A stretch of DNA of 64,000 bases from Nanobdellota archaeon (GTDB taxonomy: Archaea > Nanobdellota > Nanobdellia > CSSed11-243R1). Positions 19,476 to 39,125 of this stretch are shown here, piece by piece (position 1 is the first letter of the stretch; every line of letters starts with the position of its first letter). The translations under genes and the position numbers were made by a program. Location: NCBI GenBank assembly GCA_021162365.1, contig JAGGYW010000013.1, forward strand, positions 8,960 to 72,959. Reading direction: 5' to 3'. The notes below the pieces were generated by a model. The model saw only the letters and a program-made list of their open reading frames with translations, was not told the DNA's origin and made no database searches.

Positions 19476-19554
19476 CTAAAACCTTTTTCTTAAAAAGAAA
19501 AAGCTTTACCAAAAAGAAGGAATTGGAGAAGTCTTGAGGAAAAGAAGTTCTAGA
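19476..19554. repeat. tRNA 3' trailer carrying an AT-rich palindromic mini-hairpin (ctttttcttaaaaagaaaaag). Member of the TTTCTT..AAGAAA hairpin family seen elsewhere in the window.
   Basis: Seen in sequence. Confidence 0.4.
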
Positions 19555-20001: not shown

Positions 20002-20229
20002 TAAGTAGTTTTCAAGCTCTCTCTTCTAAATTCAGTGTATTCCTTCACCGTTTGAGATACGTTCATAATACCACTACTATCAAGTAGTGATTACGTATTT
20101 ATATATTTTTCGATAAAGTTTTCCTTCTTTTAGCAAAGCTCTTTTTAGTGCAGGTTTTCTCGTAGAGAAAAAGTGCTAAAGAAAGAAATTTTTCTCTTTG
20201 GTAAAGCTTTCTCTTTCTAAGAGAAAGGT

Positions 20230-26927: not shown

Positions 26928-27174
26928 GGCCCCGACGGGACTTTCGTGCAAGCCTTTTCTTAAAAAGAAAAGCCTTGAGGGAAAAGAAGTTTCTTTCCCT
27001 GCAGACTTTCTTTCCTAAAGAAAGGCTGCTTTCGAACCCGCAACCACCTGGTTTCTCCTCTCTTCTTTGCTCAAGCTTTCTTTCTAAGAAAGCTTGTCCG
27101 AAGCCAGGCGCTCTATCCAGGTTGCTTCAACACCTCTTCTTTCTAAGAAAAGGTGCTGATTAAGCTACGGGGCC
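26927..27174 (-). tRNA. tRNA-Arg (anticodon TCG) interrupted by three introns: D-loop, canonical anticodon-loop 37/38, and T-loop 59/60. 248 nt for a ~73-nt mature tRNA.
   Basis: Manual parse of the minus strand. Exons GGCCCCG-TA-GCTT-A..CCTGGATA-GAGC-G-CCTGG-CTTCGG[intron]A-CCAGG-TGGTT-GCGGG-TTCGAA[intron]T-CCCGT-CGGGGCC-T. Introns carry palindromic TTTCTT..AAGAAA mini-hairpins. Confidence 0.6.
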
Positions 27175-27213: not shown

Positions 27214-28437
27214 TCAGCGGAGTTTGTATTTTTGTTCTAAATCAGCAATTTCGTTTTTGATATCCTCTATTTTTTCGTGCACCTTTTTAAGCTCATTTAG
27301 CTTTGCTCCGAAGTTTTTTCCCTTTCGGGTTTTCATTTTTTTGAGCTTGCTTTCTATATCGTTAGATTTTGAATATAACCCATTCAGCTTTGCCTTAAGG
27401 CGCGTCAACTTTTGCTTGGCTTTTCTTTTTTCCTCTAATGGTATTATTTCTTCCTTTGTCAAATAATACATAAATAAGGAGATTCCAACGACTACAAGCA
27501 TCCAACAGCAGATGCTGAGCTGCTGGCTTTCCATTATTTCGTTAGGGAAGAATATAACTTTTGGAGGTTCGCTACTAGTTGCATTATTTTTTTCTCCGTA
27601 AATTATGAATTCTGAGAAGCCCATTGTTTTAAAGTAGAAGTAAACATTGCCCTCATCCTCACTTATTCTATATGGAATTATTCTGTTTACACCATTTGAA
27701 ATTTCAATTATGCCTATTTTTGAATCGTTTATGTTATTAGAATTGATCCATTCCTTTGGTATTTTGAAATGAATAACTGCATTTTCGTATTGTTCTTTAT
27801 AGATATCTTCTAAGTCAACAGACAAGCAATCAAAAACAATTCCTGAAGATAGAGAATAATCCTTGTTGCATCTTTGAATGTTTATTGTACCAGATGATAT
27901 TTGTTGAGATGTATATATTGTTAATTTTTGAAAGTTTTCTAATATATCCAATCCAATTGTGAGGTTTGTGTTTGGTGGAACTGGAAGAATGTTCATGCTT
28001 TGGTTTCCAACTTTTATTACTATAAATGAATTTCCACCACCACTCGACATGCTTTTAAACGATATTCTGACACCAAATTCTTTAATTTGTTCTACATATC
28101 CCACTTTCTTGGCGGTTATCTTTGTAAAGTACACACCTGTTGTATCAAATTTTTTCTTGAATATAAAGGCAGAATTCGAAGGACTATATGCCATCTGGTA
28201 TGTTTTCCCATCTACAGAAATTGTAACATTTGCATCCACAATGTCAGTACCATTTTCATCTTCATAATCTGCTATAAACATAACTTCTTGATTTACCCTT
28301 GGGTTTTCTGGAGTATAGCTAGTTTTTAGTGTTGTATTTACTAGCGGTGGAACAGTTAAAGATGCACCAAGGGACGCAGCGCTAGCTACAGAAATCACTA
28401 AAAGTACTAGAGTTAAAGCTAAAGTTGCCTTTCTCAT
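27214..28437 (-). CDS. Single-pass membrane protein (407 aa). Signal peptide, ~300-aa extracellular beta-rich domain, TM (ICCWMLVVVGISLFMYYL), cytoplasmic coiled-coil tail.
   Basis: ORF track and manual topology reading. Confidence 0.55.
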   Translation of the reverse strand: MRKATLALTLVLLVISVASAASLGASLTVPPLVNTTLKTSYTPENPRVNQEVMFIADYEDENGTDIVDANVTISVDGKTYQMAYSPSNSAFIFKKKFDTTGVYFTKITAKKVGYVEQIKEFGVRISFKSMSSGGGNSFIVIKVGNQSMNILPVPPNTNLTIGLDILENFQKLTIYTSQQISSGTINIQRCNKDYSLSSGIVFDCLSVDLEDIYKEQYENAVIHFKIPKEWINSNNINDSKIGIIEISNGVNRIIPYRISEDEGNVYFYFKTMGFSEFIIYGEKNNATSSEPPKVIFFPNEIMESQQLSICCWMLVVVGISLFMYYLTKEEIIPLEEKRKAKQKLTRLKAKLNGLYSKSNDIESKLKKMKTRKGKNFGAKLNELKKVHEKIEDIKNEIADLEQKYKLR

Positions 28438-28462
28438 AATTAAAAAATAAAAAATTAAGGGT

Positions 28463-28957
28463 TTAACAGTTCATTGTTATTGTAATTGTTTGTGTGTATG
28501 TTGCTGGGTATTGTGCGTTTGGTACTCCTACTCCAAAGTACAATGTGAACGAGCTACCTGCTGCAAGGCTTGCGCCTGCGGGTATTGCTGTGTCTGTAGT
28601 TGTAAGTGGTGTTCCGCTGGTAGAATAGTCAAATGAGGATGTACTCCATTTTGTTTGTCCAACAGCCATTGTGTGTCCTGCACCATCATCCCAGTTTGTA
28701 CCTTTTATTGTTGTGTTTGTTGTAGGTGTGTTACCTCCATTTGTAACAGTTACTTGTTGGTTTGTGCTCCCTGTATCAGTTCCTGGTGTAACGCTGTTAA
28801 AGTTAATCGTGTTTGTTGATAGATTTACTGTACAAATTGCTGGGACTGTTACTGTTGCTGTAATTGTGTCGCTATCTGTGTATGCTTTTGCTATTCCCAC
28901 GAATGCAATTCCTGCTGCTAGCAAGATTACAAACGCAGCAATTATTTTCGCATCCAT
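28463..28957 (-). CDS. Small secreted protein (164 aa) consisting of a signal peptide plus a ~130-aa Thr/Asn-rich beta domain. That domain is paralogous to the C-terminal domain of the adjacent 1325-aa protein and resembles a SCPU/Csu-pilin-like fold (both end ...YTQTITITMNC).
   Basis: Direct alignment of the two protein sequences from the ORF track. The fold assignment is a weak inference. Confidence 0.55.
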   Translation of the reverse strand: MDAKIIAAFVILLAAGIAFVGIAKAYTDSDTITATVTVPAICTVNLSTNTINFNSVTPGTDTGSTNQQVTVTNGGNTPTTNTTIKGTNWDDGAGHTMAVGQTKWSTSSFDYSTSGTPLTTTDTAIPAGASLAAGSSFTLYFGVGVPNAQYPATYTQTITITMNC

Positions 28958-29439
28958 CTCTTCTTACCTCCTTTTAGCTTATAATAATATATGGAAAGGA
29001 ATATTAAAAATATTACTATACCCCCAAAAAATAGCCATTTTGAGGGGAATTCTTGTTTTTTTATAACTTCAAACTTATAATTCTTTTCTAGTTCAACATT
29101 GAAGACAATTGTGCCTGTGACATTTTGAAGCGCCCTTGCTGTTATTTTGCCGCTGAAATTTCCAGTTTCGTTAGCTATTGCTGTGACTTTCATTTCTTGT
29201 TGGCTGTGCGGTAGTATTGTTCCATTAGTGGGTTCAACTACGATATTACCTGAATATGTAATTATCTCAAATTCTATTGGTTCATTGCCTGTATTTACAA
29301 GCCAATATGTTAATGTTTTGTTTTCTCCAAGGGTTATTTCACCGAAGTCGAGCACGCCCGCAGATTGTCCGAAGTCGGCGTTTGCAATTGCAGTTGCTAC
29401 GAAAATCAATCCAATTAAAATGATTGTTTTTCCTTTCAT
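28942..29439 (-). CDS. Secreted Ig-like (PapD-like/ASH/DUF1573-like) domain protein with a C-terminal TM anchor and a basic tail.
   Basis: LDFGEITLGENKTLTYWLVNTGNEPIEFEI pattern. C-terminal KWLFFGGIVIFLIFLSIYYYKLKGGKKRWMRK. Confidence 0.5.
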   Translation of the reverse strand: MKGKTIILIGLIFVATAIANADFGQSAGVLDFGEITLGENKTLTYWLVNTGNEPIEFEIITYSGNIVVEPTNGTILPHSQQEMKVTAIANETGNFSGKITARALQNVTGTIVFNVELEKNYKFEVIKKQEFPSKWLFFGGIVIFLIFLSIYYYKLKGGKKRWMRK

Positions 29440-29448
29440 TTTTTCACC

Positions 29449-32400
29449 TCAACAGTTCATGGTTATTGTGATAGTTTGAGTATAACTACTTGCGGCTTGG
29501 TATTGTGGTACTCCTACTCCAAAGTAGGTTGTTATCGAATTTCCTGCTCCAAGATTTGTTGTTATCGCAGCATCTGTTGTTGTCAAGTCAGTTCCGCTTC
29601 CGTATGTAAATGCACTTGTACTCCATTCTGTGTTCCCAACTGCGAATGTGTTTCCTCCTCCATCACTCCAATCTGTTCCTCTAATGGTAACATTTGTTGC
29701 TGTTCCACTTCCAGAGTTGGTAATAGTAACATTTTGGTTTGTGCTTCCAGTATTTGTTCCTGGATTCACACTTCCAAAACTAATTGTGTTTGTGGATAGA
29801 GAAACTACACATGTTTGTGTGTTTAAAATTGTTAGATTTGTGAGTGGGTCATAATAATTGCTATATGTATTTGTTCCGTCCACATCTATTGCCCTGCATC
29901 TCAAATCAACATTTGTTTGGTCAGGGATGTTGGATACGTTCCATACAAATGTGCTTCCTTCGGTATGGTTCCCTATAGTTCTCCATTTTTTAACTAATCC
30001 CCAAGCACATTGGCTACATGATTGGCAGGATGTTTGGCTTGTGTATGTGTCACAATTTAAGTTTCCATTACAAGATTGGGGTACACTTTTTATGCCTGTG
30101 ATGTTCACACAGTCTAGGTAAGCATCATCTCTATTTCCCGAAAACTCTGTTTCAAATCTAATTGTAACCGAGTCATCAAATGTGCAATCGCTTGGAGTAA
30201 TTGTTACACACTGTTCATCTGTGCATCCATTTAGCCATTGGCCTTCCGTACCTTTTTCGTTTGGGCAGTAGGTCCACACTATGTTTCCATCACATTTTAG
30301 GTCTATACACTCTCCCGCCTCTATGCTTGTATAATATGCGGACCAGCTTATGGTTACGTTGGTATATCCTGTAAAGTTGAATGACTTTTCTGTATATGAG
30401 GTAGTGGTATCGTCTTGAAGGTGCCATGAGTAACTTCCTCCACTACTCCCATCATCTTGACAATTACTTGTTACACTACTCCAGTCCGAATCTGATCCTG
30501 GATCAGTCCATCCGTCTGGTCCCGATTCCCAGCCAGTATAGTAAATATTTGTCTTAGATGTTCCTCCTCCCCAGCTGCATCCTGCTGATGAACAATTACT
30601 ACAACTGCTCGAATCGCTGCATGCACTACAGCTTCCATTGTTGTAGCAGGAGTAATCACTATAATTTGCTTCTATAACGTACGTAATTGTATCTCCGTCC
30701 GGATCAGTGGAGCCGGAGCAAGTTATATTTACGCTGTTAGAGAAAGTTCTGTTACAGCTTCCTCCGTCACAACTTATGTTGGTAGGGGTGGTTGGTGGGC
30801 CCTCTTCTCCAAATAGATATTGGGTAGTTGAGTCTCTGCTCTGACTAATTGGGAATATAGCTCTATAGGCACTGCCGTCTTGTTCAAATTGAATCTGTGT
30901 GGCACTTAAGATTTGAGTCCAAATTCCATTTGAGTATTTGTATACCATACCGTTTGCATGGGATAAGTTGGTTACTTCTATGTATAGTTTTTCTGTGCCT
31001 TGGTCCCAATTTGAGTTTCCTGTAATATTGAATTTTATGTCTTTACCTGTATTTCTCTGTATTTTGTATATAAATTCTTTTGAGTCAAAACCAGTTATGG
31101 TACAATTTTCTACAGCAGTTATTGTTGCGGGATTCTCATGAAGAGAGTATATATTTTTTACGGTTGCATTTGAATTTCCGTCATAAAGGACAGTTATTGT
31201 AAATATATCATCATAGTTTTGTATGGAATTTGCGGAATACCAGAATTGATCGAAATAATCACTTCCATTCGTTTCTATATCTATTGTTGAGCTGTCTTGA
31301 TCTGTGGCTCCACTTGGCATTGCCTTTATTATCTTTCCGAATGCTAAATCGTTTGTAGTTGATCCATACCAACTAACCCACGAATTACTTGATTGATCAA
31401 ATACGTCATACACAGAATTTGAAGTTGAGGTTGTTGTGTCTGTCGGTCCCGCTTTGCTTCCGCCAGTATAATGTAAGCCATATGAATCATATCCACTTGT
31501 AGTATTTGTGTCATTTACCACGGTTAAAATTCGTAACCCATCATTGTATGTTCCAGCAAAGTTTATTGTTTTTATTCTTCCTACATAATAGTCATTATAG
31601 AAGTACCAATCTATGTATATCTGGCCCGACCAGTTTACCTCTACAGCGACTCTATAAGAGCCATTTTCTAAAATTGTTATATCTGTTGGAGTTACTTGGT
31701 TCGAGATTATATCGCTTATTGGTACGGTGATAAGTGGTTTGTATACTAATGCTACATAATCTGCTATGTAGCCTTGAGATAATTCTACGTTTGGATCGTA
31801 TTCTTTTGACCAGAAGTCTTTAACGTACCCCCATGATGTATAGGATGTGTTGTTACTGATACATACTTTGTATTTGTTTGTTTCCACAGTTATACATGTT
31901 CCATCTGCACTTACTACATATGCTGGGTCATTTGCAGATATATGGAGGGTGTAATTCTGTCCAGGTGTAACGTCAGCAATTTTTGTCCAGCTTCCTTCAC
32001 ATTCTCTTGAGCTAAAATTCCAATCTTTACATTTGTATATGAAGTTCCCCTTTGGTGTTATGGTTACATTCCCTTCAACAAATTTAACCTTTGGATCTAT
32101 TGCAAAAGATTGAACAGCATCTTGGATATTTGATGGAATATCTAAATCTAAGTCAACTATCTCATTTAATGTGGATTGTATCTCCACATTCTTTAGAGTT
32201 ATTGATTTAACAATGTGGTTTCTTGGAATTAATTTGATAGTATAGTTCCCCTTCTTTACGCTGATTGGAGTTCCTTCGGAGATAGCAATTAGCTTGTTAT
32301 TTTGGAATACTTTCGCAGTTGTTGGTATGTCTTTATTTTCAAAGTCCTTAATTTTTGGTGTGATTACTATGTACATCCTACCAAAATATGACGCGCTCAT

Positions 32401-33426
32401 ATTTGTTTCGTTTTTTGGGAGTTGGAATACAAATACCTCTGATTGATTTCCAACTTGAAGTTCAAAGCGGCTTCCATCCCATTTGTAAATGGTGAGAGTT
32501 ATGTTCTCATTAGGTGGTGCTGGGTATTTACTAAACCCATATGTTACGTTACCTATGATGTAGAATGGTTCCTCTTTTGTAGAGTTATGTGAAAAAACTA
32601 TTACAAAATTATCATTTTTCCAAGAAGTAGACAAAATTTTTACATCAAAGTTTTCGTCATCTTTTATCTTTTCATAATATTTTTCACTGCTCATGTTTTG
32701 GATCGCAGAAACATTTTCTTCTTGTACCTTTACAAATGAATACTGAATTTTGAATATCTTTACTTTTCCATTTCCATGTAATTCAAAGTAGAGTTTATAT
32801 GAAGAATAATTTAACTTTTTATCAAGTAGGTTACATGTTTCTTCGCAGACATAGTTAAGGGGCACAACTCTTGTAGCTTGTGTTGGGGTTTCTCCTCCAG
32901 TTTCGCCTTCTACACCCCCTTTTTCTTTTTGAGGGAGTGCCTTTTTTACATCTTTTATAAGGAATGCCGTCACACCTTTCATGGCAAGGAAGTCTTTCGT
33001 GTTTGCAATTAGGTATCTGTTTCCATCTTTATCCTCGAGGTATATTTGCGCGTCTCCGTCCCCTTCATATACTCCGGAAATTTTTATGGAACTTAAATAG
33101 CCCTTCACTTTGTTTTGTGGTTCCCAATTTACATATTTTGAATTTTCTACAATGATGTTTACATCATCTGTGAAGGAGATAATGTTGCTTTCGGATGTTA
33201 CGAATCCTTCAATTGATGGGGATATGTGTGTTACAAGTGTGTATGATACAATTGAGAGTAGGATGAAGACAATGAAGGGAAGAAATGGTCCCGCCCTCTT
33301 CCCTTTAAGTAACCTTTCTCTTATCATTCCATCAGTTACTTTCTTTTTGATGCCAATTATTTCGAGGGACTTTATCGTTTTTGGGTTTTGAAGATTAACT
33401 TTATACAGTGTTTTCTTGCCTTCCAC
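29449..33426 (-). CDS. Giant (1325 aa by track) surface protein. N-terminal signal-anchor (most plausible start ATG at 33327: MIRERLLKGKRAGPFLPFIVFILLSIV...). Huge Thr/Ser/Asn-rich extracellular region with Cys-rich modules. C-terminal domain is homologous to the 164-aa protein at 28463-28957.
   Basis: ORF track (the track start is GTG at 33426). See finding on the in-frame wHTH-like extension up to 33588. Confidence 0.7.
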   Translation of the reverse strand: MEGKKTLYKVNLQNPKTIKSLEIIGIKKKVTDGMIRERLLKGKRAGPFLPFIVFILLSIVSYTLVTHISPSIEGFVTSESNIISFTDDVNIIVENSKYVNWEPQNKVKGYLSSIKISGVYEGDGDAQIYLEDKDGNRYLIANTKDFLAMKGVTAFLIKDVKKALPQKEKGGVEGETGGETPTQATRVVPLNYVCEETCNLLDKKLNYSSYKLYFELHGNGKVKIFKIQYSFVKVQEENVSAIQNMSSEKYYEKIKDDENFDVKILSTSWKNDNFVIVFSHNSTKEEPFYIIGNVTYGFSKYPAPPNENITLTIYKWDGSRFELQVGNQSEVFVFQLPKNETNMSASYFGRMYIVITPKIKDFENKDIPTTAKVFQNNKLIAISEGTPISVKKGNYTIKLIPRNHIVKSITLKNVEIQSTLNEIVDLDLDIPSNIQDAVQSFAIDPKVKFVEGNVTITPKGNFIYKCKDWNFSSRECEGSWTKIADVTPGQNYTLHISANDPAYVVSADGTCITVETNKYKVCISNNTSYTSWGYVKDFWSKEYDPNVELSQGYIADYVALVYKPLITVPISDIISNQVTPTDITILENGSYRVAVEVNWSGQIYIDWYFYNDYYVGRIKTINFAGTYNDGLRILTVVNDTNTTSGYDSYGLHYTGGSKAGPTDTTTSTSNSVYDVFDQSSNSWVSWYGSTTNDLAFGKIIKAMPSGATDQDSSTIDIETNGSDYFDQFWYSANSIQNYDDIFTITVLYDGNSNATVKNIYSLHENPATITAVENCTITGFDSKEFIYKIQRNTGKDIKFNITGNSNWDQGTEKLYIEVTNLSHANGMVYKYSNGIWTQILSATQIQFEQDGSAYRAIFPISQSRDSTTQYLFGEEGPPTTPTNISCDGGSCNRTFSNSVNITCSGSTDPDGDTITYVIEANYSDYSCYNNGSCSACSDSSSCSNCSSAGCSWGGGTSKTNIYYTGWESGPDGWTDPGSDSDWSSVTSNCQDDGSSGGSYSWHLQDDTTTSYTEKSFNFTGYTNVTISWSAYYTSIEAGECIDLKCDGNIVWTYCPNEKGTEGQWLNGCTDEQCVTITPSDCTFDDSVTIRFETEFSGNRDDAYLDCVNITGIKSVPQSCNGNLNCDTYTSQTSCQSCSQCAWGLVKKWRTIGNHTEGSTFVWNVSNIPDQTNVDLRCRAIDVDGTNTYSNYYDPLTNLTILNTQTCVVSLSTNTISFGSVNPGTNTGSTNQNVTITNSGSGTATNVTIRGTDWSDGGGNTFAVGNTEWSTSAFTYGSGTDLTTTDAAITTNLGAGNSITTYFGVGVPQYQAASSYTQTITITMNC

Positions 33427-33625
33427 TTTTCTAATTAGATGATTTTGTTTGACTAAGTCATTTAAATGTCTGTGCGCAGGTTCGTATGATATCTTGAGTT
33501 TATCTTGTATCTCTTTGATAGAATACCATCTATTTGGATCACTGAATGCTCTTAATACTTCTAAGTAACTGTTTATTTTCTTTATAGTACCACCAATTTA
33601 TAGGAGAAAATAAGCGCTTAAAAAA

Positions 33626-33644
33626 CTATTGGATTATCCAATAG
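33626..33644. promoter_or_regulatory. 19-bp perfect palindrome ctattggat-t-atccaatag upstream of the giant surface-protein gene. Candidate operator for a winged-helix regulator.
   Basis: Seen in sequence. Adjacent TTTTTTAA TATA-like element on the minus strand. Confidence 0.4.
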
Positions 33645-33670
33645 AAGCACTTTTCTTTCTTAAAAAGAAA

Positions 33671-33692
33671 GAAACCTGCACTAAAGAAAGAA
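33671..33692. repeat. 22-nt exact repeat gaaacctgcactaaagaaagaa (second copy at 39280-39301), flanked by a TTTCTTTCTT-AAAA-AGAAAGAAA hairpin.
   Basis: Exact string match between the two loci. Confidence 0.6.
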
Positions 33693-33789: not shown

Positions 33790-34047
33790 AGGGCCCGGTG
33801 GGACTTCCAAGCACTCGCCAAGAGTTTCTCTCTTAGCGCAGGTTCTCTCTTTTCAAAGAGAGAAAGTGCTTTCGAACCCACGACCCCTTGCTTGCCACGC
33901 TCCCTCTTTCTTTCCCGAGGGTTTCTTTCTCGGGAGAAAGAAAGGCTCTTAGGAGGCAAGTGCTCTATCCAAGCTTTGCCACGCACCCATTCTGCCAGCG
34001 CTTTTCCGTGCACGCTTTTTTAAAGGGTGCGTTTGAGCTACGGGCCC
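33790..34047 (-). tRNA. Candidate tRNA-Arg (anticodon CCT) with multiple introns: D-loop, anticodon loop, T-loop 59/60. The variable region is atypically long (possible extra intron), so the model is tentative.
   Basis: Manual parse. GGGCCCG-TA-GCTC...CTTGGATA-GAGC-A-CTTGC-CTCCTAA[intron]GCAAG-...-GTGGG-TTCGAA[intron]T-CCCAC-CGGGCCC-T. Introns contain gtttctttctcgggagaaagaaagg-type hairpins. Confidence 0.45.
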
Positions 34048-34101
34048 TTTTGTACAATAACAATCCAATTCTTTTTAAAATTTAACTTTCTAAAATTAGA
34101 T

Positions 34102-37439: not shown

Positions 37440-38354
37440 TTAATTACCTCTCAATATTTTTGCAATATTTTCTGGAGATATTTTACACAAGTTAATTCCA
37501 TATCCTTCTTTTATTGTTGGATGAAGTGTCTTTTGGAAGATTTTTATATGGAAATGGAAGTCTTTTTCTTTGTTTGGTCTTAGATAGAATACCATCCCAT
37601 ACTTGAATGGATTTATGGCGACACTTAATCGTGTGAGGATATTTTTAATTGTTTCTGCAAGAGTGAATATTTCGAAGTCGTTTAACTCACTAATACAGGT
37701 ATAGTGTTTTTTGGGGATTATCCACACTTCGAAGTTTTCTGATGGGGAAAATGGGGCGAAAGCTATGAATGAGTCATTTTCAAGTATGTGTCGCGGGCCT
37801 TTTGCTTCTTTTTTGATTATATCGCAATAAATGCATTTTTCTGTTTTAAATTGGTAATCATTAAATGCATTTATCTTTTCTTTAATTTGTTCTGGTAGAA
37901 TTGGTAAGGTGAAAATTTTTGAATATGCATGTTCGAACTCAAGATGAAGATTATCTTTTATTATTCCTATAAACTCCACATTTTCTCTATTTCTTAGCTC
38001 CTTAACTCTTGCTGCATAAACTTTTAGAACATTTTTTATTTCTTCTGAAGGAAGCTCATGTAACTCTTTTGTGTGGTCCCGAGTTTCTACAACTACCTCG
38101 CTCCACCCATGTGCATTTATGGTGTTAAATATTCTCTCTTTTTCTTTTACCTTAAACTTTGTTGGGTGTGTTAATGGGTAGGGGTCTACTATGCTTCTGA
38201 CAAGCCACTTTCCCTTTTTATCTTCAATTTTGAATGTTTCTTCAGTTTTTTCTTCTGATCCTGGACAGAGAGCACACCCTACCGCAGAAGGTTCAATTTC
38301 AGATAATATAGACCATTCATTTATATCATAGGATTTTCTGAGCTCGTTTTGCAT
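37440..38354 (-). CDS. Galactose-1-phosphate uridylyltransferase-like / nucleotidyl-sugar phosphorylase of the HIT superfamily (GalT branch).
   Basis: N-terminal CALCPGSE (GalT CxxCPG zinc motif) and C-terminal HFHIKIFQ (HxHxQ-like). Confidence 0.6.
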   Translation of the reverse strand: MQNELRKSYDINEWSILSEIEPSAVGCALCPGSEEKTEETFKIEDKKGKWLVRSIVDPYPLTHPTKFKVKEKERIFNTINAHGWSEVVVETRDHTKELHELPSEEIKNVLKVYAARVKELRNRENVEFIGIIKDNLHLEFEHAYSKIFTLPILPEQIKEKINAFNDYQFKTEKCIYCDIIKKEAKGPRHILENDSFIAFAPFSPSENFEVWIIPKKHYTCISELNDFEIFTLAETIKNILTRLSVAINPFKYGMVFYLRPNKEKDFHFHIKIFQKTLHPTIKEGYGINLCKISPENIAKILRGN

Positions 38355-38834
38355 GATTATCCAAAGTTTATAAAATACCTTTCATTTAAATATTATATGG
38401 GTAAAGTGTTTAAGGATGTTCCTATCGCAGAGATTACGCTAAGAAAGTTTGAGAGACCCAGTAACGAAGACAAGAAGGAATTAATTCGTAAGTTTTGCAT
38501 TTCTGTTGGACTTCTTCAGCCAGGAGATTCAAGAGATGTGATTGTAGATATAATTAATCTGCTTTTGGATGCAAGTAAACATCATGAGTTTATGACATCT
38601 AAGGAAATAGAGGATGAAATTAAAAAAATTAGAACAAAGGGAGTTGCACCATCAAATATACGACGTCAGCTTTTGAGATTGGAACGTACAGGATTTATCG
38701 AGAGGGTTAACGGGAGATATAGAATAAGGGAATTTATGAATTTAAGTGATTTGATAGATGAGATTAGGCGGTTTGTAGTTGAGCCAACACTTGAGAGAAT
38801 TAAAGAATACGCGAAGCGGATTGACAACATTTGA
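38349..38834 (+). CDS. Winged-helix DNA-binding protein (161 aa).
   Basis: RRQLLRLERTGFIERVNGRYRI winged-helix-like segment. Confidence 0.45.
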   Translation: MHDYPKFIKYLSFKYYMGKVFKDVPIAEITLRKFERPSNEDKKELIRKFCISVGLLQPGDSRDVIVDIINLLLDASKHHEFMTSKEIEDEIKKIRTKGVAPSNIRRQLLRLERTGFIERVNGRYRIREFMNLSDLIDEIRRFVVEPTLERIKEYAKRIDNI

Positions 38835-39125
38835 TTATCTGTCTGCTTTCTTGAATAACCTCATTGCCTTTGAAAGATGTTCTGCTATATCTCTTCCAAG
38901 AGGAGTTAGTTTAATTGTTTTTAGTCTGCCCTTTTTGTCAAACTCTACAAGCCCATGATCTTCCATGGTTTTTAGAATCCTTACAGTGTGAGAGTATGTG
39001 CAATCAACCTCTTTTGCAAGCACAGATGCATACCTTAGCTTGTGATCTTTTGCTAAATTTAGCAATATGTTTACTGGTTTTTTTCTTAAGAAAAATGAAT
39101 AGAGATTTTTTTTCTTAGCACCCAT
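38835..39125 (-). CDS. Small winged-helix transcriptional regulator (ArsR/MarR-like, 96 aa).
   Basis: ASVLAKEVDCTYSHTVRILKTMEDHGLVEFDKKGRLKTIKLTPLG. Confidence 0.55.
   Translation of the reverse strand: MGAKKKNLYSFFLRKKPVNILLNLAKDHKLRYASVLAKEVDCTYSHTVRILKTMEDHGLVEFDKKGRLKTIKLTPLGRDIAEHLSKAMRLFKKADR

What the first reader, a model, noticed from the sequence alone, without database searches (positions are those of the whole stretch)
33327..33644. In-frame winged-helix-like extension with no canonical start codon upstream of a giant surface protein, preceded by a 19-bp perfect palindrome
The most plausible start of the 1325-aa protein is ATG at 33327, giving a signal-anchor. The reading frame stays open for 87 more codons upstream, to a TAA at ~33589-33591. 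Those codons encode SYLEVLRAFSDPNRWYSIKEIQDKLKISYEPAHRHLNDLVKQNHLIRKVEGKKTLYKV. This is a textbook wHTH (three helices plus wing), similar to the small regulators at 38349/38835. Only one in-frame GTG (33426, within the wing) and no ATG/TTG precedes it. There are three possibilities. A wHTH-TM-giant ectodomain fusion, i.e. a membrane-tethered transcription factor initiated at a non-canonical codon. A recent fusion or frameshift of a separate small regulator gene. Or a sequencing frameshift. The ctattggat-t-atccaatag palindrome (33626-33644) plus a TTTTTTAA box sit just upstream. Together they look like an autoregulatory operator.
Basis: partly seen in the sequence, partly recalled or inferred. 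Interest (0 to 1): 0.7.

Follow-up and report, generated by a model that had tools for sequence, protein, structure and literature searches.

The report
Membrane-tethered regulator with non-AUG start
In a tiny symbiotic-type archaeon (Nanoarchaeota), a giant cell-surface protein carries a DNA-binding domain on its cytoplasmic end, appears to begin at an isoleucine codon (ATA) instead of ATG, and sits behind a strictly conserved palindrome that probably lets it control its own promoter.

Summary
The in-frame stop is TAA 33600-33598, not about 33590. The ATG at 33327 is not the likely start.

**Architecture.** The winged-helix (wHTH), single transmembrane helix and giant ectodomain form one conserved polypeptide. 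Four orthologues and several more distant homologues from other Nanoarchaeota assemblies share the layout. Synonymous sites in the wHTH are saturated (pS 0.68-0.94) while pN is 0.14-0.20, so the domain is under purifying selection.

**Not an error.** Frameshift, assembly error and recent fusion are refuted. Three assemblies give identical DNA, and the orthologue alignment shows no frame-changing indel.

**Start codon.** Four of the five orthologues have no canonical in-frame start. The only start-like feature shared by all five is an Ile codon (ATA, ATC, ATT, ATC, ATC; window 33585). It lies exactly five bases after an invariant GGTG, which is the commonest Shine-Dalgarno spacing in this window. 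It also lies just downstream of the transcription start predicted from the TATA box.

**Palindrome.** It abuts the TATA box, 18 of 19 columns are invariant, and its half-site TATTGG accompanies this wHTH family even in distant homologues.

**Reading.** This is a single-pass transmembrane transcription regulator, probably autoregulated and weakly translated from AUH. The start codon and DNA binding remain inferred. Public annotation truncates the wHTH.

The parts
33626..33644 (.). Perfect 19-bp palindrome CTATTGGAT-N-ATCCAATAG. Candidate operator, directly abutting the TATA box at the BRE position.
   Evidence: 18 of 19 columns are invariant in five orthologues whose synonymous sites are saturated. 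The half-site TATTGG recurs at the promoters of distant homologues. It is the only exact TATTGG-N5-CCAATA in the 64 kb.
33617..33625 (-). TTTTTTAAG, an archaeal TATA-box-like element.
   Evidence: The same 9-mer precedes gene 9310 at the leaderless distance. It is near-invariant in five orthologues. It is replaced by TTATTTAAA and ATATTTAAA in L003 and L006.
33590..33594 (-). GGTGG: Shine-Dalgarno-like motif and predicted transcription start (G at 33594, preceded by a pyrimidine).
   Evidence: GGTG is invariant in five orthologues. GGTG-N5-ATG is the commonest SD spacing in the window's genes. The first A of the TATA box to 33594 is 25 nt, matching the 25-27 nt seen in leaderless genes of the window. 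The transcription start itself is inferred.
33583..33585 (-). ATA: proposed non-canonical start codon. The product would begin M/I-KKINSYLEVL.
   Evidence: It is the only start-like codon shared by all five orthologues (ATA, ATC, ATT, ATC, ATC), each exactly 5 nt after GGTG. Only 0.29% of ATH triplets in the window have GGTG-N5 upstream.
33598..33600 (-). In-frame TAA that closes the frame upstream.
   Evidence: It aligns with the TTG that the gene caller used as the start in L001.
33352..33573 (-). Winged helix-turn-helix domain (residues about 5-78 counted from ATA), with the invariant motif SYEP[AT][HY]R[HY] in the recognition helix.
   Evidence: AlphaFold2 gives pLDDT >90 over residues 11-70, with the order H-H-H-hairpin-H. 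Foldseek matches Sso10a-2, MarR, ArsR and AspA structures. Pfam hits are weak and below the cut-offs. pN is 0.14-0.20 against pS 0.68-0.94.
33232..33285 (-). Single transmembrane helix FLPFIVFILLSIVSYTLV, preceded by the K/R-rich stretch RERLLKGKRAG. Orientation is N-terminus in, C-terminus out.
   Evidence: Hydropathy scan and AF2 helix 102-121. The same position holds in all orthologues. The orientation is inferred from the positive-inside rule.
29452..33231 (-). Ectodomain of about 1260 aa, with 32 Cys and 37 N-glycosylation sequons in the whole protein. It contains repeat domains shared with giant proteins of up to 5691 aa.
29452..29811 (-). C-terminal domain of about 120 aa, duplicated in the downstream ORF 28463-28957 (65% identity).
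29449..33585 (-). Whole proposed coding sequence (1378 aa plus stop).
   Evidence: Public gene models start at GTG 33426 (1325 aa, P0001 and P0152 = MCD6575862.1).
27214..29439 (-). Three downstream co-oriented genes for secreted or membrane proteins. They are 165 aa (Ig-like, HYDIN/ASH type), 164 aa (paralogue of the C-terminal domain) and 407 aa. This is a probable operon; the first two genes have an SD upstream and the third does not.
33791..34047 (-). tRNA-Arg(CCU) gene interrupted by three introns. It is the conserved upstream neighbour.
   Evidence: a spliced sequence built by hand is recognised by ARAGORN. The gene is missed. Synteny is shown.

Best explanation
The gene at 33585..29449 (minus strand) encodes one polypeptide. 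It has a cytoplasmic MarR/ArsR-like winged-helix DNA-binding domain, a short linker, one transmembrane helix and an extracellular region of about 1260 aa. This makes it a single-pass transmembrane transcription regulator with ToxR/CadC-like topology, fused to a giant surface protein of a Nanoarchaeota (DPANN) archaeon.

**Transcription (inferred).** The TATA box TTTTTTAAG (33625-33617) directs transcription. The predicted start is near G 33594, giving a leader of about 9 nt that begins with GGUGG.

**Translation (inferred).** The GGUGG pairs with the 3' end of 16S rRNA and places the near-cognate codon AUA (33585) in the P site. Translation would then start weakly at a non-AUG codon and keep the copy number of the regulator low.

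**Regulation (inferred).** A dimer of the wHTH binds the palindrome CTATTGGAT-N-ATCCAATAG. The palindrome overlaps the BRE position next to the TATA box. Binding would control the gene's own promoter and, with it, the downstream operon of three surface proteins. The likely trigger is whatever the ectodomain contacts outside the cell.

**Shown:** the conserved architecture, purifying selection on the wHTH, the conserved absence of a canonical start, the conserved GGTG-N5-ATH arrangement, and the conserved palindrome tied to the TATA box.

**Inferred:** the transcription start, AUA as the initiation codon, which protein binds the palindrome, the sign of regulation, and the signal.
For: **Architecture**
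- P0002, P0007 and the loci L001, L002, L005, L006, L007, L010 and L020 all encode wHTH, then a TM helix, then a large ectodomain.
- The AF2 wHTH model has pLDDT >90 and a helix at 102-121.
- Foldseek top hits are DNA-binding wHTH proteins: Sso10a-2, ST1710, BldR, SqrR, HlyU and AspA.

**Selection**
- pS is 0.68-0.94 against pN 0.14-0.20 over the wHTH in all ten pairs.

**Not an error**
- The 401-nt region is identical in the window, in JGI 3300016457 and in ENA ERZ23499535.
- In four of the five orthologues exactly 31 nt separate the TATA box from the ATH codon. L010 has 34 nt, an in-frame 3-nt insertion. No indel changes the frame.

**Start codon**
- ATA, ATC, ATT, ATC, ATC sit at the same position, each 5 nt after invariant GGTG.
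- N5 is the commonest GGTG-to-ATG spacing in the window, 5 of 10 cases.
- L001's in-frame TTG aligns with a TAA in the window and a TTC in L005.
- The TTG, ATG and GTG triplets in the other orthologues are out of frame.
- The first A of the TATA box is 25-27 nt from the ATG in leaderless genes of the window. That puts the transcription start at 33594-33592, downstream of ATT 33597.
- The internal Met at 33327 is not conserved.

**Operator**
- 18 of 19 palindrome columns are invariant, while the 31-nt spacer beside it is mostly variable.
- The palindrome always abuts the TATA box. Its distance to the tRNA varies: 4, about 40 and about 150 nt.
- TATTGG half-sites occur at the promoters of L003, L006, L002 and L007. 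L007 has two wHTH domains and two palindromes, and no tRNA neighbour.
- Each archaeal genome has one exact site, and the window has one in 64 kb.

**Class precedent**
- Transmembrane transcription regulators (TTRs) are common in archaea (PMC10269533).
Against: - No experiment supports initiation at AUH in any archaeon that I could find.
- The Ile codon varies among its three synonyms. That is also what an ordinary internal Ile codon would do.
- A 5'-terminal SD on a 9-nt leader is unusual.
- In L010 the TATA-to-GGTG distance is 3 nt longer.
- The 16S rRNA 3' end of this organism was not available, so the anti-SD pairing could not be checked.
- All Pfam matches of the wHTH are below the gathering thresholds.
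- Only five orthologues could be sampled.
- The palindrome could be bound by another factor, for example the syntenic small wHTH proteins at 38349 and 38835.
- L003 encodes a 115-aa wHTH that stops where the TM helix should begin. That stop lies 2 nt from the end of a 501-nt contig.
Confidence: 0.55

Rival explanations
1. Same fused protein, but translation starts at ATT 33597, the first in-frame codon after the TAA, on a leaderless mRNA.
For: ATT is a near-cognate codon and is the first codon of the open frame. L010 has ATA at the equivalent position.
Against: - The equivalent codon is TTT in L005, CTC in L001 and AAT in L020.
- ATT 33597 lies only 22 nt from the first A of the TATA box. That is upstream of the 25-27 nt at which leaderless genes of this window start.
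Confidence: 0.1
2. Translation starts on a leaderless mRNA at the conserved GUG (33593), or at UUG or AUG one codon upstream. This is in the +1 frame. The ribosome or the RNA polymerase then slips by -1 on the A-rich Lys-Lys run to enter the wHTH frame.
For: - GTG lies exactly 26 nt from the first A of the TATA box, which is the leaderless geometry.
- L001, L005 and L020 read ...A AAA AAA TAA in that frame, a slippery heptamer followed by a stop. L020 even has an ATG there.
- L010 has A AAA A.
Against: - In the window the GTG frame reads GTG GTA CTA TAA and stops before any slippery run. CUA cannot re-pair at -1.
- The A-runs are explained simply by the Lys-Lys codons.
- The heptamer is not conserved in L010.
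Confidence: 0.08
3. The wHTH is no longer translated in this lineage, through loss of the start, a frameshift or an assembly error. The protein is then made from GTG 33426 or ATG 33327 as a plain signal-anchored surface protein.
For: - Public gene callers choose GTG 33426.
- MIRERLLKGKRAGPFLPF... looks like a signal anchor.
Against: - The same lack of a canonical start occurs in L005, L010 and L020, which have diverged to saturation at synonymous sites while keeping the wHTH under purifying selection.
- The DNA is identical in three assemblies.
- No orthologue shows a frame-changing indel.
- Met 33327 and Val 33426 are not conserved as start codons, and neither has an SD upstream.
Confidence: 0.05
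4. The palindrome is not the operator of this wHTH. It would be either a hairpin plus T-run that terminates or processes the upstream tRNA transcript, or the binding site of a different regulator.
For: - The scan flags it as terminator-like: an 8-bp stem followed by TTTTTT.
- In L001 it lies 4 nt after the tRNA.
- Small wHTH genes are syntenic in L001.
Against: - The distance to the tRNA varies from 4 to about 150 nt, while the distance to the TATA box is always 0.
- In L003 and L006 the palindrome is followed by TTATTTAAA and ATATTTAAA, not by a T-run.
- A T-run already follows the tRNA in the window and in L003.
- L007 has two such palindromes and no tRNA.
- In L003 the central 5 nt differ while the TATTGG arms are kept. 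That fits protein recognition of half-sites better than an RNA stem.
Confidence: 0.2

Closest known systems
Transmembrane transcription regulators (TTRs): ToxR, TcpP and CadC in bacteria, and the archaeal TTRs surveyed in PMC10269533
   Same: An N-terminal cytoplasmic winged-helix DNA-binding domain, a single TM helix and an extracytoplasmic domain. Regulation is presumed to act from the membrane. The survey found that single-pass is the commonest TTR type and counted about 4 TTRs per archaeal genome.
   Different: - The wHTH here is MarR/ArsR/Sso10a-like, not OmpR-like.
- The ectodomain is about 1260 aa here and up to about 4900 aa in P0153. It is built from the repeat domains of giant surface proteins, not a small sensor domain.
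- It has a conserved non-AUG start.
- The lineage is Nanoarchaeota.
ArnR and ArnR1 of Sulfolobus acidocaldarius, membrane-bound one-component regulators of the archaellum (PMC6396743)
   Same: Archaeal wHTH regulators anchored in the membrane that control genes for surface structures.
   Different: From the literature, ArnR has its TM helices at the C-terminus and no large ectodomain. The big protein gave no ArnR1-like Pfam hit; that hit belonged to the neighbouring 96-aa protein at 38835-39125.
Genes with conserved AUU starts in bacteria, infC (IF3) and pcnB. This rests on established knowledge, not on a test here.
   Same: A near-cognate AUH start codon conserved among orthologues behind a good SD, giving deliberately low or regulated initiation.
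   Different: - This gene is archaeal, where aIF1 and aIF2 rather than IF3 police the start codon.
- All three Ile codons are used.
- No feedback through an initiation factor is implied.
MarR, ArsR and Sso10a wHTH DNA-binding proteins
   Same: The fold: three helices, a beta-hairpin wing and an extra C-terminal helix. A palindromic target also suggests a dimer.
   Different: Sequence matches are below every Pfam cut-off. The motif SYEP[AT][HY]R[HY] is specific to this family. The domain is fused to a membrane anchor.
Giant surface proteins of DPANN archaea, for example the SPEARE proteins of Nanohaloarchaeota. This rests on my own knowledge and on the titles listed.
   Same: Very large, Cys-rich and glycosylation-rich extracellular proteins in ultra-small archaea, thought to mediate host contact.
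   Different: I found no description of such a protein carrying a cytoplasmic DNA-binding domain or its own operator.

Membership tests
Transmembrane transcription regulator (TTR, as defined in PMC10269533) | A predicted DNA-binding domain | tested here: met
   The AF2 model is a wHTH with pLDDT >90. Foldseek matches DNA-bound MarR, ArsR and AspA structures. Pfam hits are only sub-threshold.
Transmembrane transcription regulator (TTR, as defined in PMC10269533) | At least one transmembrane region in the same polypeptide | tested here: met
   There is one hydrophobic helix at residues 101-118. The frame is continuous and the layout is conserved in L001, L005, L010, L020, L002, L006 and L007.
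Transmembrane transcription regulator (TTR, as defined in PMC10269533) | The protein actually binds DNA and regulates transcription while in the membrane | not testable with these tools
   There is only indirect support: the conserved palindrome at its own promoter.
MarR or ArsR family (Pfam) | A score above the Pfam gathering threshold | tested here: not met
   The best hits are DUF7342 at 22.1 bits (cut-off 31.6), HTH_24 at 16.1 (21.9) and MarR_2 at 12.5 (27). The protein has the fold only and is not a family member by sequence.
ArnR/ArnR1-like membrane regulators | An ArnR1-like wHTH plus C-terminal TM helices | tested here: not met
   The big protein has no ArnR1-like_WHD hit. It has a single TM helix followed by a large ectodomain.
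Gene with a conserved non-AUG (AUH) start codon | The same non-canonical codon class at the aligned position in orthologues, with no canonical in-frame alternative | tested here: met
   All 5 orthologues have ATH there. Four of the five have no in-frame ATG, GTG or TTG upstream of the wHTH. L001's TTG is not conserved.
Gene with a conserved non-AUG (AUH) start codon | A ribosome-binding site at functional spacing | tested here: met
   GGTG-N5 is present in all five orthologues, and N5 is the commonest spacing in the window. The 16S 3' end of the organism was not available.
Gene with a conserved non-AUG (AUH) start codon | An experimentally determined N-terminus or initiation site | not testable with these tools
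   This needs proteomics or initiation-site ribosome profiling.
Programmed -1 frameshift or transcriptional slippage | A slippery sequence conserved in all members, in the frame of the upstream start | tested here: not met
   It is present in L001, L005 and L020. The window reads GTG GTA CTA TAA with no slippery site.
Intrinsic-terminator-like hairpin | A stem followed by a conserved T-run, positioned relative to the upstream gene | tested here: not met
   The T-run is absent in L003 and L006. The distance to the tRNA varies from 4 to about 150 nt.

The most novel reading that the evidence does not exclude
A clade of Nanoarchaeota has fixed a near-cognate AUH initiation codon behind a 5'-terminal Shine-Dalgarno sequence. 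It has kept this through saturating sequence divergence. The effect would be to throttle synthesis of a combined adhesin and transcription factor. In this protein a giant extracellular domain that contacts the host or substrate is wired through one TM helix to a wHTH. The wHTH sits on a palindrome at its own TATA/BRE. That would give these minimal cells a one-protein pathway from surface contact to transcription of a surface-protein operon.
Probability: 0.3. Interest if true: 0.8.

Novelty: new variant of a known kind. Interest (0 to 1): 0.62.

Why it matters
- **Signalling in DPANN archaea.** These archaea have very few recognisable signalling systems, and how they sense their hosts is an open question. 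A conserved family that joins a giant surface protein to a DNA-binding domain with an identifiable operator gives a concrete, testable candidate for contact-dependent gene regulation.
- **Non-AUG initiation.** To my knowledge a conserved, gene-specific AUH start in archaea would be an unusual natural example of regulated non-AUG initiation in that domain.
- **Annotation.** Public gene models (MCD6575862.1 and P0001) start inside the wing and lose the wHTH entirely. This class of protein is therefore invisible to domain-based surveys of regulators.

Tried and rejected
- **Assembly error or indel near 33560-33600.** Rejected. Three assemblies are identical and the orthologue alignment has no frame-changing indel.
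- **My first reading of L001 against the window as a 4-nt deletion that put TTG out of frame.** Rejected once L005, L010 and L020 showed that the spacer length is fixed and the TTG positions differ.
- **Frameshift from the GTG frame, or termination-reinitiation at ATAA.** The window stops after three sense codons and L010 has no matching site.
- **Separate small wHTH gene.** P0124 (115 aa) lies on a 501-nt contig, with its stop 2 nt from the contig end. Its closest relative, L006, continues into a TM helix.
- **mRNA splicing that supplies an ATG from upstream BHB-like hairpins.** Considered and not pursued, because the TATA box lies downstream of those elements at a fixed distance from the ATH codon.
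- **Regulon search.** No further TATTGG-N5-CCAATA sites above chance in the window. The ten bacterial hits in the genome scan are at about the number I estimated would arise by chance.
- **The search for homologous proteins.** It returned nothing useful for this family.
- **Ectodomain families.** NCBIfam and Pfam gave no family.
- **Literature searches for archaeal AUH starts.** No direct precedent found.
- **Structure prediction with all eight N-termini.** It was rerun with four.
Full report
**What is in the sequence**

On the minus strand one frame is open from 33597 to the stop at 29449-29451, 1382 codons. The first canonical start in frame is GTG 33426 (codon 58) and the first ATG is 33327 (codon 91). 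No other plausible gene in the window has more than about 15 codons between the upstream stop and a canonical start.

The perfect palindrome ctattggat-a-atccaatag is at 33644-33626, followed at once by TTTTTTAAG at 33625-33617.

**The N-terminal part is a real, folded, selected domain**

- Pfam gives only sub-threshold wHTH hits: DUF7342, TBPIP, HTH_24 and MarR_2.
- An AlphaFold2 model of the first 130 residues has pLDDT above 90 over residues 11-70. The order of elements is helix, helix, helix, beta-hairpin wing, extra helix. A long helix follows at 102-121.
- Foldseek against the PDB returns DNA-binding wHTH proteins: Sso10a-2, the MarR proteins ST1710 and BldR, the ArsR proteins SqrR and HlyU, and AspA.
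- The hydrophobic segment FLPFIVFILLSIVSYTLV follows a Lys/Arg-rich stretch. By the positive-inside rule the wHTH is therefore cytoplasmic and the remaining 1260 residues or so are outside the cell (inference).

**Relatives**

An exhaustive HMMER search found several informative proteins.
- The window's own protein as called publicly (P0001, 1325 aa, starting at GTG 33426).
- An orthologue that includes the wHTH (P0002, 43% identity).
- A more distant homologue (P0007).
- A 115-aa wHTH (P0124).

Contig look-ups, one metagenome scan and one genome scan gave DNA for the orthologues and homologues.
- Orthologues: L001/L019 (Nanoarchaeota archaeon AUK136), L005, L010 (archaeon Dive96_bin10.467) and L020 (Nanobdellati archaeon S014).
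- More distant homologues: L002 (Candidatus Nanoarchaeia; the full-length relative P0153 has 4997 aa), L003, L006 and L007.

Every one that extends far enough has wHTH, then a TM helix, then a large ectodomain. L007 has two wHTH domains before the TM helix.

Between the five orthologues, synonymous differences in the wHTH are saturated (pS 0.68-0.94) while non-synonymous differences are 0.14-0.20. The fusion is therefore old and maintained. That rules out a recent fusion.

P0124/L003 stops exactly where the TM helix should begin. It lies on a 501-nt contig with the stop 2 nt from the end, and its closest relative L006 runs on into a TM helix. I do not count it as a separate regulator gene.

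**Not an artefact**

The 401 bases around the start are identical in the window, in a JGI assembly (L004) and in an ENA assembly (L021). More important, three other orthologues show the same absence of a canonical start.

**Where translation starts**

From the TATA box to the coding region the orthologues align as follows.

| Locus | TATA box | Spacer | Codon (position) |
|---|---|---|---|
| Window | TTTTTTAAG | 31 nt | ATA (33585) |
| L001 | TTTTTTAAG | 31 nt | ATC (6016) |
| L005 | TTTTTTAAA | 31 nt | ATT (1271) |
| L020 | ATTTTTAAG | 31 nt | ATC (2026, minus strand) |
| L010 | TTTTTTAAG | 34 nt | ATC (3560) |

The spacer is poorly conserved except for an invariant GGTG(G/A) that ends 4-5 nt before the ATH codon. 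All five then read (I)KKI[KN][NS]YL.

Other start candidates fail.
- L001's gene call starts at an in-frame TTG. That TTG aligns with the window's TAA and with L005's TTC.
- The TTG, ATG and GTG triplets in the window, L005, L010 and L020 are all out of frame.

Within the window, genes inside operons carry GGTG, most often exactly 5 nt before the ATG: 5 of 10 occurrences, at genes 23877, 26283, 29439, 36992 and 56300. Only 0.29% of all ATH triplets in the window have GGTG at that distance.

Genes with a TATA box and no SD have their ATG 25-27 nt after the first A of the box. Applied here, that geometry puts the transcription start at 33594-33592, on a conserved pyrimidine-G step. This is downstream of ATT 33597 and 8-9 nt upstream of ATA 33585.

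The simplest model that fits all five sequences is a very short leader beginning with GGUGG, acting as a Shine-Dalgarno sequence for a near-cognate AUH start. This is inference; no tool here can show initiation.

The main weakness is that variation among ATA, ATC and ATT is also what an internal Ile codon would show. The counter-argument is that the window has only four in-frame codons upstream (ATT GGT GGT ACT), and none of them is a conserved start candidate.

**Alternatives for the start**

- *Leaderless AUU at 33597.* It is not conserved (TTT, CTC and AAT elsewhere) and lies upstream of the predicted transcription start.
- *Leaderless GUG at 33593 followed by a -1 slip.* The GTG sits exactly at the leaderless distance, and L001, L005 and L020 read A AAA AAA TAA in that frame, which is tempting. 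But the window reads GTG GTA CTA TAA with nothing slippery, and L010 has no heptamer. I give this model 0.08.
- *Internal starts.* Met 33327 is V, E or K in most orthologues, and neither it nor Val 33426 has an SD.

**The palindrome**

- Across the five orthologues, 18 of 19 columns are invariant. Only the central base flips between A and T. Neighbouring non-coding positions and synonymous sites are randomised.
- It always touches the TATA box. Its distance to the upstream tRNA is 4 nt in L001, about 40 nt in L003 and about 150 nt in the window.
- In L003 the arms are kept while the centre changes (CTATTGG-cttTc-CCAATAG). L006 has CTATTGGATAGTCCAATAG. In both, the palindrome is followed by a TATA box that is not a T-run.
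- L002 has four GTTATTGG/CCAATAAC half-sites around its TATA box and ATG.
- L007 has no tRNA neighbour, two wHTH domains and two palindromes: TTATTGGATAATTCAATAG next to a TATA-like GTTTAAAAAG, and TTATTGGACGAGCCAATAG abutting its GTG start.
- The half-site TATTGG thus travels with the wHTH family, whose recognition helix carries the invariant SYEP[AT][HY]R[HY].
- Each archaeal genome hit in the genome scan has one exact copy. The ten bacterial hits are at about the number I estimated would arise by chance. The window has one site in 64 kb.

This is good comparative evidence for a cis-element specific to this gene, most simply the operator of its own product. Because it overlaps the BRE position it could block or recruit TFB and TBP. 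The sign of regulation is unknown. The terminator reading suggested does not survive the comparison.

**Context**

- Upstream lies a tRNA-Arg(CCU) gene.
- Downstream, 9 nt after the stop, are three co-oriented genes for secreted or membrane proteins; the first two are preceded by an SD. The first is Ig-like. The second is 65% identical to the C-terminal 120 residues of the big protein.
- Autoregulation would therefore extend to a small operon of surface proteins.

**Comparison with known systems**

The protein works like a single-pass transmembrane transcription regulator (ToxR, CadC, TcpP). A survey found such regulators in most archaeal genomes (PMC10269533), and ArnR and ArnR1 are studied archaeal examples (PMC6396743). 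It meets the two sequence-level criteria of that class.

It is not a member of the MarR, ArsR or ArnR families by sequence. It differs from described TTRs in three ways:
- its giant ectodomain of the surface-protein type;
- its operator fused to the TATA/BRE;
- the conserved non-AUG start.

The nearest analogy for the start is the conserved AUU of bacterial infC (established knowledge, not tested here). I rate it a new variant of a known kind.

**Verdict**

| Claim | Confidence |
|---|---|
| Conserved fused architecture | about 0.9 |
| Palindrome is a functional element tied to this gene family | about 0.85 |
| The wHTH itself binds the palindrome | about 0.6 |
| ATA 33585 is the initiation codon | about 0.5-0.55 |

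Noticed in passing
window 33791-34047 (minus strand): A tRNA-Arg(CCU) gene is split by three introns of 59, 57 and 67 nt, in the D-loop, at the canonical 37/38 position and in the T-loop. ARAGORN and Rfam both miss it. After manual splicing ARAGORN recognises it. The orthologous tRNA in L001 has no introns, while L003, L005, L006, L010 and L020 show intron-like hairpins.
   Followed up: partly
window 19483-19503, 20207-20227, 27073-27095, 33652-33674, 33843-33864, 33922-33943: There is a family of perfect CTTTCT(Y)T...A(R)AGAAAG hairpins. Two lie inside the tRNA introns, one lies just after tRNA-Ala, and one lies just upstream of the palindrome. The last is conserved in L005, L010 and L020 and absent in L001. 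Perfect palindromes are 4-5 times over-represented in the window (15 against 3.3 in shuffles). This may be an intron-derived or mobile hairpin element.
   Followed up: partly
window 29452-29811 and 28463-28957 (minus strand): The C-terminal 120 residues or so of the giant protein are 65% identical to a stand-alone 164-aa secreted protein two genes downstream. NCBI names the big protein 'DUF4402 domain-containing', but neither Pfam nor NCBIfam reached any threshold here.
   Followed up: partly
window 33426 (public gene start); L001 6001: Public gene models mis-place the start. MCD6575862.1 and P0001 begin at GTG inside the wing and lose the wHTH. MCD6547486.1 (P0002) begins at a non-conserved TTG that probably lies upstream of the transcript start.
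   Followed up: yes
L007 1327-1345 and 1470-1488; ORF from 1489: This is a distant homologue on a 118-kb contig. It has two tandem wHTH domains before the TM helix and two TTATTGG-N5-YCAATAG palindromes upstream. The second palindrome abuts a GTG start.
   Followed up: partly
L003 152-499: A 115-aa wHTH protein (P0124) ends with a stop exactly where relatives begin their TM helix. The stop is 2 nt from the end of a 501-nt contig. It could be a true stand-alone variant, a strain-level nonsense mutation or an error at the contig end.
   Followed up: no
window 34062-34079 (minus strand, promoter of the tRNA-Arg gene): TTTAAAAAGAATTGGATT is an 83% inverted copy of AATCCAATAGTTTTTTAA, the right arm of the palindrome plus the TATA box. 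The tRNA promoter therefore carries a half-site-like ATTGGAT next to its own TATA box. By eye it is not obviously conserved in L001.
   Followed up: no
window 38352-38364 (minus strand): TTGGATAATC, 10 nt identical to the core of the palindrome, lies immediately before the ATG of the GalT/HIT-like gene at 38354. This is in the divergent promoter region shared with the small wHTH gene at 38349. It is a single half-site and is compatible with chance.
   Followed up: no
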